A stretch of 62,447 bases of DNA, filler included, from Sluysia triapertura (GCA_046118255.1; 5 parts of 5 records of this genome joined end to end with filler, not necessarily neighbours in it); one strand, 5' to 3'; shown: positions 6,180-54,310, counted from the whole stretch's first letter. Numbers and translations: made by a program. Notes: a model not told the origin generated them from the sequence alone.

Positions 6180-6970
6180 TGTGACTTTTCTTAATCTTAC
6201 ACTAGCAGAATAAAGCAACCTTATAGGTGAGTCCATCAACGTACTAGGCTTACTGGTTAGGGCTAGGCGTTGGATTTTTCAAATGAAAGAATTTTATTGG
6301 GTGGTTAAAAAACTGCTTAGTGCTTACTGGCTTAGTGACAAGTGCTTGTTAGCTTAAAAATTAAATATGGCGGTCAAAACTTCTATAAAGTTATGATGAG
6401 ATTTTACGTAAATCCTATGAAAAGGATTTATTATTAATTGATTTTACGAATCAGAATGAAATTCTGATAAATCTTCTATATTCGACGATTTTATGGCTTT
6501 GAAACTATAGAAGTCATTAGTTAAATTCTGAAAACTCAAATGTTAACTTTATATTACAAAAATTAAATAAGTACTACAATGTAAAAGTTAATGACAAAAT
6601 TTAATAATAATACAGATCGTTAATTTACAAAATTAACTGTTAGTTAATTTATTTAACAAAAATATTTGAAGTACAAGTTTACGCGGGAACCACTAAATGG
6701 TTCCAAATTTTATTAAAAATTGATTTTTCCTGGATTTTCCGAATGATACTTATAAGTATCGATACCTTATATAAATAAACTAACGTTTACAATAAAATCA
6801 AAGTTTTTGTCTAGAAGAACATGTAAGTGGATTGTTGTGATTCAAGATGATGATAATGATTAATGTTAAAATTTGATTTATATTTTTCATTACATTTATA
6901 AACTATACTATTCGAGTTTATTAAAATTTATTGTTTTAAAATTTTAAAATCAAAGTGTATTATTAACTTC
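6180..6970 (-). mobile_element. Recurrent cassette copy A (LTR-end-like); upstream boundary approximate
   Basis: Conserved stem-loop at 6227-6277 and palindromes at 6410-6429 and 6449-6468. The minus strand reads GTAAACGTTAGTTTATTT at ~6773-6790, identical to 14548-14565 of copy C. Confidence 0.7.
6227..6277 (-). ncRNA. Conserved stem-loop motif, copy A
   Basis: Reverse complement AAATCCAACG-CCTAG-CCCTAACCAGTAAGC-CTAGT-A-CGTTGA-TGGACTCAC. Confidence 0.7.
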
Positions 6971-8383
6971 TGTATAATAAAAAAGACATAAAAACATATG
7001 AAAATTTATTTGTCAAGATTTTAATTTTAAAATATTGCATCCTGCGTATGTCTTCTATTATTCCATGTTCATTATCTAAAAAAATATAAGAATTCATAAT
7101 GTTACAAATGTAAATAGAAAGATCAATTACTTTTCGATTATCCCTCGTTAAGCTGCTATTGGTTGAATTGATTGTTAGTGTTCCAAGACTTCTGAGTAGT
7201 CCAACTATTCTTGCTGAGTGATGTTAGATTCTAATTCATATATTGTATGCGTGTAACAGCAATGACTTCCATTCTTTACACTTATGCCATAGTTATGGCG
7301 AATGGACAAAAGGCAACCATGTTAGCTTCGTAATCATCATCTTTATTATCGTTAGATTCATAAGCATCATTTTTATAATAGTATTTGTATAGTATTTAAT
7401 AATTTTTACAAATTAAAAACGACGAAAAATAAATTAAAATAAAATGATAATGATAAAAATGATAACACTAATAACACTAATGTTATTATTATTATTTTAC
7501 AATAAAGCATAAATTTCTTTTTGAATTTAAAATGATATGAACTTTCTATTGAATCTTAATCTTCTCGACATATTTGAAAGTTAAAAGAAATGATGGAATT
7601 AAGAATGATAACAATAATAGCAAGAACGACAATGTTATCGTTACTATTGTTATTAAAATGCATAAAATCCTTGTTTCTTAGTTTAACATGACCTTTAATT
7701 TCTTACATATTTATTACTACTTAATCTTTCTCACTGAAGATGTATTAAAGTGTAAATGGTTATGACTTAAGTATTTTAGGATAATATAATGTTAAAATGA
7801 GTGATAAATGTGCATTGGTGTTTTGACAGAATGTCATGTTTGGTTGTTAGGATTTAATGAAAAAAGATCGTGAATTTGAAATGTCTGAGCTGATTTGAAA
7901 GTGTACGATAATTAATTTCGAATGTGGTTGAAATTGAATTGTTATAAGGTTGAAGATTTGAAATGTTTTTAAAAAATTGGAAGTTAATTTTGGTGGATGT
8001 AAAAAGGAATACGATATAAAAATGGTTATGAAAAATTTAACAATGTTGTTGTGTGGTGTTGAAACAAGTATGATTTTAATTATTTTTGTGTTAGTTGTGA
8101 ATTTGAAAATGTGAATTGTAGATTTTGGGAGTGATTGTTATGTTGACAAAACTTGTGTAAAAAGAATGTTTTTGATGAATTTTTGAAGATGTAAAATATT
8201 TGAGATATATTTTTAATAAAATTTATTAATGTAATAGGTTGGCCACCACACGGATTCTTTTGATTGTTAGATGTGAACTGTTTCTTATCTACGCGATGAA
8301 CAGACTGTCTAGCACTTAGAAAGCTGTGTCCAGAAAAATCGAAGTAATAAAATTATATAAGATTGTGTTCAATATTGTGAGAG

Positions 8384-8412
8384 TATTTATAGGTCTTTTT
8401 TGTTGACCTTGA
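8384..8412 (-). promoter_or_regulatory. TCAAGGTCA (NR5A/FTZ-F1-type site) plus TATAAATA, promoter-like module
   Basis: The minus strand reads TCAAGGTCA-acaaaaaagacc-TATAAATA. Confidence 0.5.
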
Positions 8413-9027
8413 ATGTGTAAAACAAAAAACTTTAATTTCATTATTTAATTGTCTAAAATTATTTTCAAAAATAATTATAATATTTCAAAATTATTTTCAA
8501 AAATTAATTATTTTATAATAAAATTAATTATAAAAATTAATTACTTTTCAAATAATAAAGTTCCACAATAAAATAAAAATATTAATATTATCAATTCAAT
8601 TAAAATCAATGTCTTATTAAAAATCAATTTTTAATTATGTCTTTATTTACAATAAAATCAATAGTGTTAATATGGTGTGTTATTATACAAATCAATATGT
8701 TATTAATCAATATTGTGTGTTATTAGAATAATCTTACACACATTCTTGCAATCACTCACCCGACCAAGAAAATTGGTCACCAATTTTGTCTTTATTAGTT
8801 TGTTAAATTATGTTAATATGTTCAATTATTATGCGTTAATATCTACTACAAAATAAGTAATTAAAAGTACCTCAAATAAATCATTCATTATAATATTACT
8901 GCAACAGAAAGAATGTTGCCTTTTCTTTGGTAGCCAATTATATATTTTTGAAACATATGTTGAGGTACAGGCCAATTTAGAATAATAATAGTATAATTGA
9001 CTATAATAAAATAAAATTATTAAACGA

Positions 9028-9048
9028 GACTGATAGCTCAGAGTAAAG
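9028..9048 (+). repeat. 5' fragment of the tRNA-like element seen at 44620-44691
   Basis: GACTGATAGCTCAGAGTAAAG matches the acceptor/D-arm start GACTGATATCTCAGTGG..AAAG. Confidence 0.45.
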
Positions 9049-51545: not shown

Positions 51546-52391
51546 GAATGACTGATTAGATATTGATTTCACCAACATATCTAAACTTACCGATTAGACC
51601 GCTGGATTTTTGTGTAAATTAATAACTTATGGAAGTTTATTCTAAATTTGTTTAATATATAAGCTCAGTGAAATTATACGAGATTTTTAAAGGAACTATA
51701 ATTATCTACTTAAAACATGAGAAAGCTTATTAACTCTTACTATCAGTATTAATATTTTACTAAGGTTCTTTCGTAAAGAGAACCTGAAAATAATCAATTT
51801 TGATTTTAGATATTTTATATTACATTTTATTACGATTTCTAATTCAAACGAAACCGTTAAAAACTTTGTATAATTTACGTCGGTTACTAAACTAAACCGG
51901 AAAGAAACTATTAATGAAAGATGTTAATGATGATTTTTCTGAGGTTCGTTATAATGAATCTAGTTACTTAATTATTCAAAATTTAAATGAAAAGATGATA
52001 AATTAATATAAAAGGATTTAGACAACACAGATAATAAGCTGTAATAATAATTTGTAATTTTAAAAAGATTATCTTCTACTAATAATCTTATGCAAATCAA
52101 ATTTTAGAAGTATTTTACTTTGTTAGTAATTTAAATGTTAACTAAAATTTATTAGAGATTTTAAAGAGATTTTTCTCTGCAATATTAAAAGATTGATTAC
52201 AACCTATATAAATAAAACTAAAGCAAATATTAAATTTTTTCTTTTGTGGTGAATTTCATCTGCGAATTGTCTTCTAAAATTTGTCTCATTCAACAAAATT
52301 AAATTCAAAAATGTTTAAAAATCGAGTTACTGCGTGAGATTAAACTTTTGAAAGTTTAAGCTTATAAATTAAAATTGGTTTTTAACCTTGA
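51546..52391 (-). mobile_element. Recurrent cassette copy G (degenerate)
   Basis: TCAAGGTTA at 52383-52391 (minus), palindrome AGGTTC...GAACCT at 51763-51785, and an internally deleted stem-loop at 51564-51609 (AAATCCAGCG..CTAATCGGTAAGT..TGTTGGTGAAATCA). Confidence 0.58.
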
Positions 52392-53556
52392 CATACATTA
52401 AATTCAAATAAATACTCAATTTAAACAAATATTTTATTTGTCAGTTTTAATTTTTAAACAATTTCTTTCATTAATAATATTAATTTAATAAATAATTTAC
52501 CGATAAAACCAAGATAATAATCATTAAATCCAGAATTGAATATAAAATTAAGTCAAAATAATCAATTTGAAACTTTGTACAACTATGTTACTTGACATTA
52601 TTATTATTATTACATTATTGATAATTTAGACGTATTATATTACAAAACAATCAATAATACAGAATATTCTTCATCGTTTGAATTACGTCGTTAGTATTGA
52701 TATTTATTTGTTTAGAAAAATACTAATTTCAAATAATGCTTTTTCATTTAGTTCTTTTAAAAGTTGGTTTTTGTATTGAAACCAATCTAAATGTTGTACA
52801 ATTTTACTTTATCTTAATTATATTGTTGCATTACTGCTAAAAAATTACTTTTCAAATTCATTCAATATTGTGCTTCTCTATCCTACAAAAAGGTTTTCCA
52901 TTTTTTAGATAAATATTTTATTTTATGTCTGTCATTCTCACACTGAAACAGAGCTCTAAATGATGCAGCCATTAAAATTTGTTTAATTGATTTAATCAAT
53001 GGTCAGAATGAAAAAATGTATGAATACTGTCAGTATATATATTTATATATAACAATTAGAATTATTATTGTGATATTTAGATTTAACCTTTTGTGTGCGA
53101 GTGGTAGATAAATTTATCGTCAAATAGATATACGTGTATTAACTAACTATCCAATGAACATATTATTATTTAATCCAGTAAATTATTCACATTATAAAAA
53201 ACGTAAAAAAGTGTCCGTGTTGGTCACCTAAATCTCATAATGAATCGATACATTTGGCTGACAGACCATAATTCTTATTTATCAACAAAGTAAAAGATTA
53301 TTACTGCTTTATGTATCGTCTTGTCTGTACTTTACCAACAATTTGAAATTCCTTCTAGGCAGTGTTAATAGACTTAGATTTTTGTGAAGTTATAAATACA
53401 TTCGTTCTTAGTTATTATTTTAGTTATAAATTAATTGGTTTAATTTTACATAATAATTTTAATGAATCATTTTACTTCAGATATTTGTTGAATTTCGAAT
53501 TTGAATTTTATTCGAATTTCCCAATCATTCTTTAAATCCTAATAAAAATCTCACAT

Positions 53557-53583
53557 TATATATATATATATATATATATATAT
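53557..53583. repeat. (TA)n microsatellite next to the end of cassette copy H
   Basis: Direct reading. Confidence 0.95.
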
Positions 53584-53593
53584 GCTACGCTTT

Positions 53594-54310
53594 TGCAAGA
53601 ATAAAAGAATAATATTACAGTGAGTCCACCAAAGTACTAGACTTACCGGTTAGGGCTAGCAGTTGGATTTTAGAAGTAATTAAGTATAGGAGTTTAAATG
53701 CAAAATTATAATCGAACAGATATTCTTAAAAATTTTATTAATTTACATGTAACTTATAATTGAATATTTAACAATGAATTCGTTAAAATAATTCGGAATA
53801 AAGATAGTTCTGGATGAATCCATAAAAAAGATTCAGAAAATAAAATATTTTACGTTGAATCTATTAAAAAGATTCAATAAAAATTATAGCATTAACTTTG
53901 AATATTTTTAACTTTAAAGCAAAAGTTTTCTAAATATATATTGTAGCACAATTGGGTTATACAACTGTCAAAATTAATTTATAATAACAAATAATAAAAT
54001 TACAAAAATTAACTTGAAAATAGTTAATTCACTCAATAAATTAAAATTGATTTTACAAAAGGAACTATGAAAAAGTTACAAAAAATTAGTTACAAAAATT
54101 TAAGTTTAATATTACTATGTGCCTGACGGTACTAATCTTAAAATAATAAACTAATGACTGTTTCAGATAAATTAAAACTGGGTCAGTTCTTCGGTTTTGT
54201 CCAAACGTTGAAAAATAAATTCGAAATTGTACAAATTATTTTTAAAAATTTGGCTGTTAAATTATGTGTTAAATCACTTATTTAAAAACTCTTTTTAGAA
54301 ATGACCTTGA
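53594..54310 (-). mobile_element. Recurrent cassette copy H
   Basis: TCAAGGTCA at 54302-54310 (minus), palindromes at 53815-53835 and 53855-53877, stem-loop at 53620-53670, terminus TCTTGCA at 53594-53600. Confidence 0.76.
53620..53670 (-). ncRNA. Conserved stem-loop motif, copy H
   Basis: Reverse complement AAATCCAACT-GCTAG-CCCTAACCGGTAAGT-CTAGT-A-CTTTGG-TGGACTCAC. Confidence 0.7.

What the first reader, a model, noticed from the sequence alone, without database searches (positions are those of the whole stretch)
6227..53670. Uncharacterised ~51-nt covarying stem-loop, 8 copies in 62 kb, with invariant GTAAG in the loop and a bulged A
Seen: copies at 6227-6277(-), 13261-13313, 15013-15063, 22680-22730, 30734-30785, 47101-47151, 51564-51609(-) and 53620-53670(-). 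The consensus is AAATCCAACG-[arm]-CC(N7-9)GTAAGY-[arm']-A-CGTTGG-TGRACTCAC, while the flanks are barely alignable. The inner arms show compensatory changes: ACTGG/CCAGT, ATTGG/CCAAT, GTTGG/CCAAC, GTTGG/CCAAT, GCTAG/CTAGT and CTAG/CTAG. Three copies use G-U pairs that work only in the AAATCC... orientation, which points to selection on an RNA of that strand. A second mini-hairpin GTG-RACT-CAC overlaps the outer stem. I do not recognise it as a known family. Inference: it is a cis-acting RNA signal of a mobile element. Candidates are a 5' splice-site/U1-binding hairpin like retroviral major splice donors, a packaging or RT-priming signal, or a new small ribozyme.
Basis: partly seen in the sequence, partly recalled or inferred. 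Interest (0 to 1): 0.9.

Follow-up and report, generated by a model that had tools for sequence, protein, structure and literature searches.

The report
Folded end of a flatworm repeat
The hairpin is real, but it is the conserved folded end of a longer, old, dispersed repeat in what looks like a flatworm genome, most likely a non-coding jumping-gene passenger whose shape rather than sequence has been kept.

Summary
All eight copies are real and the stem covaries (7 cells changed on both sides, 0/500 shuffles). But the 51-nt motif is not free-standing. It is the right-hand block of a ~0.7-0.9 kb repeat with landmarks in fixed order: TCAAGG, then CGTTAGTTT (all 5 window occurrences lie 460-660 nt upstream of a copy), then sequence-variable hairpins followed by YAAA(A)Y (19/22 versus 24-26/135 elsewhere), then RCCTCCA, the core and a 20-45-nt tail. 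A ninth partial core lies inside element 6. The host is probably a flatworm.

The claimed strand is not established: the reverse strand folds as well or better. No Rfam family, known ribozyme core, coding signal, target-site duplication or outside homolog was found.

Best reading (~0.42): end signal of a non-autonomous rolling-circle (Helitron/HINE-like) element, read as folded single-stranded DNA. It fails strict HINE membership, having no 11-15-bp subterminal inverted-repeat pair. Retroposon or LTR RNA signal ~0.27; new ribozyme ~0.1. Ends, empty sites, the autonomous partner and expression are untested.

The parts
6227..6277 (-). core stem-loop, copy 1
6207..6785 (-). element 1, minimum extent: CGTTAGTTT (6777-6785), four body hairpins (starting 6760, 6704, 6468, 6430), CCACCCA variant, core, TTTATTCT tail; (ATT)n follows 50 nt after the core; TCAAGG landmark not recognisable
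13261..13313 (+). core stem-loop, copy 2
13041..13350 (+). element 2, visible part: body hairpins (13041, 13067, 13113), GCCTCCA (13242), core, tail to TCTTGCA; the left block is expected in the N gap at 12775-12874 (inference)
15013..15063 (+). core stem-loop, copy 3
14379..15113 (+). element 3, minimum extent: TCAAGG (14379), (TA)n, CGTTAGTTT (14553), body hairpins (14686, 14890), ACCTCCA (14950), core, tail to TCTCGCA
22680..22730 (+). core stem-loop, copy 4
21982..22765 (+). element 4, minimum extent: TCAAGG (21982), CGTTAGTTT (22162), GGTTC/GAACC-type hairpins (22482, 22522), ACCTCCA (22639), core, tail to TCTTACA
30734..30785 (+). core stem-loop, copy 5 (all 11 stem pairs Watson-Crick)
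30062..30825 (+). element 5, best preserved: TCAAGG (30062), CGTTAGTTT (30237), six hairpin modules (30065, 30264, 30321, 30530, 30574, 30608), GCCTCCA (30694), core, tail to TCTTACA
47101..47151 (+). core stem-loop, copy 6 (most divergent)
46912..46955 (+). ninth, partial core: a degenerate duplicate of the loop and tail about 190 nt upstream of copy 6
   Evidence: (E 0.013)
46262..47151 (+). element 6, minimum extent: TCAAGG (46262), CGTTAGTTT (46441), partial core, ACCTCCA (47065), core; usual tail absent at the usual distance
51564..51609 (-). core stem-loop, copy 7 (short loop)
51545..52391 (-). element 7, minimum extent: TCAAGG (52386-52391), one-mismatch left motif (52215-52223), body hairpins (52178, 51899, 51785), ACTTCCA variant, core, ATTCT, then (TAA)n
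53620..53670 (-). core stem-loop, copy 8
53594..54310 (-). element 8, minimum extent: TCAAGG (54305-54310), one-mismatch left motif (54148-54156), body hairpins (53877, 53835), ACTCCTA variant, core, tail to TCTTGCA, then (TA)n

Best explanation
The motif is the conserved end block of an old, diversified family of non-coding, non-autonomous mobile elements about 0.7-0.9 kb long (shown: the shared ordered landmarks). It is most likely moved in trans by a rolling-circle HUH enzyme of the Helitron/Helentron kind (inferred). When the element is unwound, the end folds into a bulged hairpin that the enzyme recognises by shape, so the arms drift by compensatory change between subfamilies. The invariant letters (GTAAG, the bulged A, TCA) would be direct contacts or lie near the nick or termination site (inferred). 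The smaller body hairpins would be repeated, weaker versions of such single-strand signals (inferred). Selection acted in active master copies; most of these eight copies are decayed.
For: Ordered landmarks shared by all copies where testable: CGTTAGTTT 5 of 5 occurrences upstream of a core on the same strand, left block recovered at rank 1 in 5 of 7 leave-one-out trials, TCAAGG 154-180 nt further left in 6 of 7, RCCTCCA-like 7 of 8, ATTC(T/A) tail 7 of 8, TCTYRCA 5 of 8 (patterns chosen after seeing the data). Two conserved end blocks around a variable, internally repeated middle, a near-terminal stem-loop kept by compensatory change, and nearby microsatellites are the described DINE-1/HINE plan (PMC2374699 passages; PMC4067079 passages). 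The tail's G-R-A-M variants (GAAC, GGAC, GAAA) are the same three found at the centre of most palindromic HINE subTIRs in Table S2 of PMC4067079 (my comparison by eye). No copy is a short 5'-truncated form. No target-site duplication above chance. No tRNA head or forward A box. No common simple-repeat tail: the three nearby microsatellites are (ATT)n, (TAA)n and (TA)n. Body hairpins are mostly perfect Watson-Crick, with no G-U excess on the forward strand (4 versus 8; 3 versus 11). A duplicated end block in element 6 recalls the duplicated termini of an HLE2 family (PMC11417382 passage).
Against: No 11-15-bp subterminal inverted-repeat pair: the only candidate (CGTTAGTTTW versus the reverse complement of AAATCCAACG) matches 8 of 10, lies at least 154 nt inside the left landmark, and no inverted repeat beat the null. 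The G-R-A-M palindrome sits near the right end on the forward strand, whereas in HINEs it begins 2-4 nt from the 5' end. A 15-17-nt loop with an invariant 5-mer is not described for HINE hairpins in the passages read. CTRR followed by T is seen after the core in only 2 of 8 copies (sequences). No RepHel gene was found in the window (only 20 ORFs scanned). The true ends and empty sites are unknown, so 'no target-site duplication' is weak. Five of 8 copies end in TCTYRCA, which suits an LTR equally well. No flatworm entry was found in the Helentron distribution table of PMC4067079.
Confidence: 0.42

Rival explanations
1. Retroposon RNA signal. The repeat is a solo LTR (promoter at left, structured R-U5 at right, ending in CA) or a SINE-like or LINE 3'-UTR element. 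The hairpins are RNA structures read by reverse transcriptase or packaging proteins.
For: TCTYRCA end in 5 of 8 copies. TCAAGG is followed within about 20 nt by a TATAWAW in 3 of 6 copies; that it resembles a nuclear-receptor NR5A/ERR site is recalled, from no call. G-U pairs in the core stem. 4-bp duplications next to a TG start can be drawn for copies 15013 and 22680. Multi-hairpin architecture with conserved linkers.
Against: No 5- or 6-bp duplication with a TG start at a plausible distance in 5 of 5 testable copies, and the 4-bp AT-only matches are expected by chance (my estimate). No poly(A) or common tail, no truncation series, no forward A box and no tRNA head. AATAAA positions are not shared. 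The strand is unresolved.
Confidence: 0.27
2. An undescribed self-cleaving ribozyme or RNA switch carried by a retroelement. The invariant loop GUAAG and tail ACUCAC would come together as a catalytic internal loop or pseudoknot.
For: GUAAG and ACUCAC each match the two strands of the twister-sister-like internal loop in part (4 of 5 and 4 of 6 positions against the residues named in PMC11620745 passages), with the one unpaired position at the scissile CA. Loop and tail pair at 6 of 6 positions on the reverse strand in 6 of 8 copies. An alternative fold using that pairing dominates in 3 of 16 copy-strand RNA folds.
Against: The loop G (G7) is A in 8 of 8 copies. The A12C change reported as almost inactive is present in 6 of 8. 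No flanking second stem. Copies 22680 and 51564 share an uncompensated tail change. No Rfam ribozyme family scored at E 10 or better in local scans. The closing helix of a reverse-strand junction forms in 1 of 8 copies.
Confidence: 0.1
3. The repeat is real but the covariation is not selection on structure. Template switching during replication perfects quasi-palindromes and yields paired changes in a decaying AT-rich repeat.
For: Only 8 related copies and about 2-3 independent paired changes. Local duplications of core pieces lie nearby. Body windows fold only marginally better than background (mean z -0.44 and -0.50 versus -0.04, P 0.05-0.06).
Against: The G+C-rich core and short landmarks are kept while the sequence between them is unalignable. 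Hairpin-plus-YAAA geometry is kept across different arm sequences.
Confidence: 0.08
4. Host cis-regulatory or small-RNA locus (splice-donor or U1-binding hairpin, or a multi-copy small RNA gene with upstream promoter motifs), not mobile.
For: GTAAG in 8 of 8 loops and GTTAGT in the left motif of 5 of 7; pyrimidine-rich, G-poor tail in several copies.
Against: Both orientations, about one copy per 8 kb, no shared link to the few genes found. RCCTCCA spacing varies from 19 to 63 nt. The first AG downstream lies anywhere from +4 to beyond +60. GT of the left motif is lost in 2 of 7.
Confidence: 0.07
5. An IS200/IS605-type (peel-and-paste) right end, or a TnpB/Fanzor guide-RNA scaffold, in an animal.
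For: Same anatomy as the IS608 right end: four bases at the 5' foot, a stem with one extra-helical base, and TCA(C/A/T) ending 9 nt after the foot (IS608: GAAT, TCAA, 10 nt; PMC3201880 and PMC5934647 passages). TTTA-containing loops in body hairpins. TCAA at the left landmark.
Against: The guide pairing rule fails: IS608 pairs C-3 with G-35, and here the foot reads AAAT in 7 of 8 copies. Conserved sequence continues 20-45 nt past TCAN. No match in prokaryote genomes, phages or viral contigs.
Confidence: 0.04

Closest known systems
DINE-1 / HINE (non-autonomous Helentrons, HLE2)
   Same: Non-coding; conserved end blocks around a variable repeated centre; near-terminal stem-loop kept by compensatory change; microsatellites nearby; no target-site duplication found; G-R-A-M mini-palindrome like HINE subTIR centres.
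   Different: No 11-15-bp subTIR pair; the G-R-A-M palindrome is at the other end or strand; larger loop with invariant GTAAG; the centre is an array of sequence-variable hairpins rather than tandem copies of one unit; T-run termini not shown.
Non-autonomous Helitron1 (HLE1)
   Same: A TC-starting landmark at left (TCAAGG) and a hairpin near the right end followed by CTR in 6 of 8 copies.
   Different: A before TC in 0 of 6 copies; CTRR then T in 2 of 8; the hairpin foot lies about 25-30 nt from CTR rather than about 11; conserved sequence continues on both sides.
Solo LTRs, and SINE/LINE 3' stem-loops
   Same: Size, CA-ending tail in 5 of 8 copies, structured right end, possible promoter-like left block.
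   Different: No shared TG start, duplication, poly(A) or repeat tail, truncation series or Pol III head. The LTR and SINE features are from my own knowledge.
IS608 right end (IS200/IS605 family)
   Same: Four-base foot, bulged imperfect palindrome, TCAN about 10 nt downstream.
   Different: Guide-to-cleavage-site pairing not met; sequence continues past TCAN; animal host; no transposase seen.
Twister-sister and TS-like (lantern) ribozymes
   Same: Partial likeness of GUAAG and ACUCAC to the two strands of the catalytic loop.
   Different: G7 replaced, A12C present in 6 of 8, no second flanking stem, no Rfam score.

Membership tests
HINE / DINE-1 (HLE2) | 11-15-bp subterminal inverted repeats at both ends | tested here: not met
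   No inverted repeat above null other than simple repeats; best candidate 8 of 10 and internal
HINE / DINE-1 (HLE2) | stem-loop near one end, kept by compensatory change | tested here: met
HINE / DINE-1 (HLE2) | two conserved blocks around a variable, repeated centre | tested here: met
HINE / DINE-1 (HLE2) | insertion between T and T, T-run termini, no target duplication | tested here: inconclusive
   No duplication above null, but ends undefined and no empty sites available
HINE / DINE-1 (HLE2) | autonomous RepHel(-EN) partner sharing the ends | not testable with these tools
   No host genome held
Helitron1 (HLE1) | A|TC start and hairpin-CTRR|T end | tested here: not met
   A before TC in 0 of 6; CTRR then T in 2 of 8
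Solo LTR | TG...CA termini with a 4-6-bp target duplication | tested here: inconclusive
   CA end in 5 of 8; only AT-only 4-bp candidates in 2 copies at plausible distance
Solo LTR | full-length copies with two LTRs, primer-binding site and gag-pol | not testable with these tools
   No genome held
tRNA-derived SINE / LINE 3' end | Pol III A and B boxes, or a tRNA head | tested here: not met
   (strict A-box pattern; a decayed head could be missed)
tRNA-derived SINE / LINE 3' end | common poly(A) or simple-repeat tail and 5' truncation series | tested here: not met
   Three different microsatellites, two of opposite sense; left block seen in 7 of 7 testable copies, weakly in 2
Known small ribozymes in Rfam 15 | covariance-model score at the gathering threshold | tested here: not met
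Twister-sister / TS-like ribozyme | 5x6 internal loop with G7 and the scissile CA, closed by two stems | tested here: not met
Any self-cleaving ribozyme | site-specific self-cleavage in vitro | not testable with these tools
   bench assay needed
IS200/IS605 right end | guide tetranucleotide at the hairpin foot pairs with the cleavage tetranucleotide | tested here: not met
   Rule applied to the sequences
IS200/IS605 right end | bulged subterminal palindrome with TCAN about 10 nt 3' of the foot | tested here: met
   9 nt here versus 10 nt
Protein-coding repeat or micro-exon | synonymous bias and frame-keeping lengths | tested here: not met
   Best frame 6 of 14 synonymous versus 18 of 48 expected, on 6 of 8 copies; core lengths 53, 52 and 46 break the frame

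The most novel reading that the evidence does not exclude
The whole 0.7-0.9 kb unit is an undescribed structured RNA element of flatworms: an array of sequence-free hairpin modules (TTTA loop, 3-nt spacer, YAAAAY) ending in a two-state core whose invariant GUAAG and CUCA form a new catalytic or switching centre, for example a diverged relative of the twister-sister loop that processes the element's own transcript.
Probability: 0.12. Interest if true: 0.85.

Novelty: new variant of a known kind. Interest (0 to 1): 0.47.

Why it matters
At about one copy per 8 kb in this window, the family could be very abundant in its genome, yet copies are too diverged for BLAST-type repeat finders to join beyond 50 nt. 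It would be missed or split in repeat libraries. If it is rolling-circle, it shows an end structure unlike described HINE or Helitron ends and offers a natural covariation series for asking what the HUH enzyme reads. If it is RNA, the invariant loop and tail are a ready candidate for a new ribozyme or switch, testable in one cleavage assay. If neither, it is one more old non-autonomous repeat, of interest mainly to annotators.

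Tried and rejected
Rfam: whole window at E 1 gave 0 hits. Local scans at E 10 gave only sub-threshold hits; the best was the lysine riboswitch on the reverse strand of copy 30734, 17 bits against a gathering score of 30, not seen for copies 22680 or 15013. 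Taken as chance.

Outside homologs: strict patterns gave 0 in viral, metagenome and prokaryote-genome collections. A loose pattern gave 51 + 4 loci; 0 of 56 matches had a fully paired inner arm or the tail. blastn of element 5 against phages gave no match. No host genome is held.

Sequencing runs: one holder, X1, of unrecorded type; no RNA holder listed, which is no evidence on expression.

Earlier scan notes: nothing returned.

Sequence tests: coding exon rejected. Target duplications and terminal inverted repeats not above null. Solo-LTR ends inconclusive. No consensus fold for the left block. A reverse-strand three-way junction closed by RCCTCCA formed in 1 of 8 copies; extended regions reached z below -2 in 1 of 16 folds. 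The covariation of 16 body hairpins is circular, because I picked them for pairing. The sigma-70 promoter scan was at chance and is irrelevant to an animal. The repeat finder was swamped by microsatellites.

Neighbouring ORFs: no family or homolog for those tried.

Print: listings showed no description of this motif. One search searched six 10-14-nt pieces; 30 of 76 papers were listed, all on unrelated topics by title, none opened. A recalled 'CTRY' Helitron end was not found in PMC4344730. Repbase and Dfam could not be searched, and the supplements of the planarian genome preprint were not seen, so the family may already be catalogued as an unclassified repeat.

Full report
SETTING. The window is 23% G+C with many (TAA)n arrays and five N gaps. 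It holds an intronless 7tm_1 receptor at 18537-19727(-) and an ANTH-domain ORF at 57905-58402(-). The receptor's best full-length relatives are Girardia tigrina NPR1 (54%) and Schmidtea mediterranea NPYR-7 (49%); the top-scoring row is a 664-aa tick protein at 44%. I infer a flatworm, probably a triclad. No host genome is held, so everything below rests on this 62 kb.

THE OBSERVATION. All eight copies are present as stated. Leave-one-out profiles recover the held-out copy in 8 of 8 trials, and the best non-copy hit has E 8.3. Cores are 52-88% identical. The 11-pair bulged stem holds in 90.6% of cells, with 7 cells changed on both sides (0/500 shuffles; slid controls at most 50%). Two of the four doubly changed pairs rest on copy 47101 alone, and the shuffle ignores relatedness, so the inner arm gives about 2-3 independent events (inference). 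A covariance model finds one further, partial core at 46898-46960 (E 0.013, which scanned all but about 200 bases of the window); its local alignment score of 26.4 exceeds the null's 99th percentile of 22.4.

THE MOTIF IS THE END OF A LONGER REPEAT. This is the main new result. Reading in the AAATCC direction, the copies share these landmarks in order. (1) TCAAGG, in 6 of 7 testable copies, 154-180 nt left of the next landmark; it occurs 27 times in the window. (2) CGTTAGTTT: all 5 occurrences on either strand lie 460-660 nt upstream of a core on the same strand (P 4.7e-6, uncorrected). Copies 51564 and 53620 have one-mismatch versions, and copy 13261 has an N gap there. A left-block profile ranks the held-out copy first in 5 of 7 trials, and 5th and 17th in the other two. 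(3) A body with hairpins at 5.3 per kb against 2.4 elsewhere; 19 of 22 are followed by YAAA(A)Y against 24-26 of 135. Their loops hold TTTA in 10 of 25 against 11-13 of 135, and TAAA in 1 of 25. Their arms differ in sequence between copies. (4) RCCTCCA or a variant, 19-63 nt before the core (exact in 5 of 8; variants in all 8). (5) The core. (6) ATTC(T/A) in 7 of 8 and TCTYRCA in 5 of 8, within 45-50 nt after it (patterns chosen after seeing the data). Between landmarks the copies align only in subfamily pairs (22680 with 30734, 6227 with 15013). Three of 8 cores have a microsatellite within 50 nt downstream (permutation P 0.005, threshold chosen after seeing the data), but these are (ATT)n, (TAA)n and (TA)n, so they are not a common tail. 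The true ends are not defined.

WHICH STRAND, AND RNA OR DNA? Unresolved. For the forward strand: 6 G-U against 1 A-C in the core stems of 7 copies, though 4 lie in one column beside the bulge and 3 in the decayed copy 51564, one cell being both. For the reverse strand: a lower consensus energy with three more pairs, one of them U-G in 5 and U-A in 3 copies; z below -2 in 5 against 3 of 8 copies; 11 against 3 wobble-type pairs flanking body hairpins; and a loop-tail pairing complete only on that strand, in 6 of 8 copies. The reverse strand is the G-richer one in 7 of 8 bodies, which inflates its wobbles. The same fold forms with DNA parameters. The loop-tail pairing is broken without compensation in copies 22680 and 51564, which share the change, so it is probably not required. 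As a pseudoknot it would need 3 nt to span an 11-pair stem, which is unlikely (inference).

WHAT IT IS NOT. Not a described Rfam family. Not coding. No tRNA head or forward A box. No hammerhead or TS-like pattern overlapping a core. Not found in viral, metagenome, prokaryote or phage collections: 0 of 56 loose matches had a fully paired inner arm or the tail. No target duplication or terminal inverted repeat above the null, apart from simple repeats.

MOST LIKELY WORKING. Shown: a dispersed, non-coding, two-orientation repeat with conserved end blocks, a variable hairpin-rich centre, a structure-conserved near-terminal hairpin and one duplicated end block. Inferred: it spread as a non-autonomous element whose masters needed the folded end. 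The described plan closest to this is DINE-1/HINE: blocks A and B, a variable central repeat, microsatellites, and a 3' stem-loop whose stem differs between species through compensatory change (PMC2374699, passages), moved by Helentron RepHel without target duplication (PMC4067079, passages). The tail's GAAC/GGAC/GAAA variants match the centres of most palindromic subTIRs in that paper's Table S2, a comparison made by eye after seeing the data. I therefore put rolling-circle recognition of a folded single DNA strand first (0.42). Membership fails on the subTIR pair and on the position of that palindrome, so I say it works like, not is, a HINE.

RIVALS. A solo LTR or other retroposon (0.27) explains the CA-ending tail and a promoter-like left block, but no shared TG start or convincing duplication was found. 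A new ribozyme or switch (0.10) is kept alive by the partial likeness of GUAAG and ACUCAC to the twister-sister-like loop (PMC11620745, passages), against three changes at key positions and a missing stem. Unselected palindrome correction (0.08), a host splice or small-RNA signal (0.07) and an IS608-type end (0.04; anatomy matches, guide rule fails; PMC3201880 and PMC5934647, passages) follow.

PAPERS SEEN. Passages only: PMC4067079 (plus the supplement list, file S7 whole, S2 whole, S8 part 1 of 2 and a term search), PMC11417382, PMC2374699, 10.1101/2023.12.22.572568 (supplements not seen), PMC3201880, PMC5934647, PMC4344730, PMC7492417, PMC11620745. Others were seen as search listings only. 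No description of this motif turned up. Repbase and Dfam were not searchable, so a prior unclassified entry is not excluded. LTR, SINE, nuclear-receptor and Ulp1 labels are recalled, from no call.

VERDICT. A real, apparently undescribed repeat family with an unusual structure-conserved end: a new variant of a known kind (non-autonomous mobile element), with class and strand open. Interest 0.47, with a 0.12 chance of a new structured or catalytic RNA worth 0.85.

Noticed in passing
window 47350-49750 (+): G+C-rich (about 40%) decayed coding region broken by stops and frameshifts. It has a Q/N-x-YDCG stretch resembling a Ulp1-type protease and a C2H2-like finger, suggesting a NeSL/Utopia-type non-LTR retrotransposon 5' part (labels recalled). 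No Pfam hit or homolog for the pieces tried. It starts about 230 nt after copy 6, whose usual tail is missing.
   Followed up: partly
window 44620-44690 (-): tRNA-like stretch with a B-box (GGTTCGATTC) not called by ARAGORN; its upstream flank resembles 8989-9041. Possible tRNA-derived SINE remnant.
   Followed up: no
window 33662-34248 vs 40790-40268; 32159-32377 vs 41127-40845: A second dispersed repeat present as two inverted copies about 70-82% alike, containing a CTAGCC-TTW-TTAAGGTCTAG palindrome.
   Followed up: no
window 8832-8924 vs 58589-58681; 36310-36422 vs 38536-38648; 49776-49827 vs 50083-50134: Further two-copy repeats unrelated to the finding.
   Followed up: no
window 8412(-), 44571(+), 45204(+), 24511(+), 25603(+): TCAAGGT occurrences away from any core, two followed by an AGGTC...GACCT hairpin like element 5's left landmark. 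TCAAGG occurs 27 times in the window. Possibly orphan left ends.
   Followed up: partly
window 31636-32097 (+): Two in-frame ORFs (74 and 78 aa) separated by a single TGA; lysine/isoleucine-rich alternating pattern; no significant Pfam hit.
   Followed up: no
window 13774-14079, 15124-15400, 22800-23130, 31040-31520 (+): Coding-like or broken coding stretches begin 60-460 nt after copies 2-5. They are unrelated to each other by tblastn and have no family assigned.
   Followed up: partly
window 6321-6355 (-) and 13177-13194 (+): Short remnants resembling the core loop 45-85 nt upstream of copies 1 and 2 (P about 0.02 and 0.12), like the partial duplicate in element 6.
   Followed up: partly
window 18537-19727 (-): Intact intronless neuropeptide Y/F-type GPCR, closest to planarian NPR1/NPYR-7.
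   Followed up: yes
window 20780-20890 (+): Short stretch resembling a REEP/HVA22 exon (label recalled; no Pfam hit).
   Followed up: no
window 17000-17081: 13-bp minisatellite AAATGAATTAAGA, 6.3 copies, 98% match.
   Followed up: no
window 12775-12874, 25089-25188, 39164-39263, 50135-50234 and about 35850-36010: Assembly gaps of N; at least two carry an internal TAATTAATTAA linker. One hides the expected left block of element 2.
   Followed up: no
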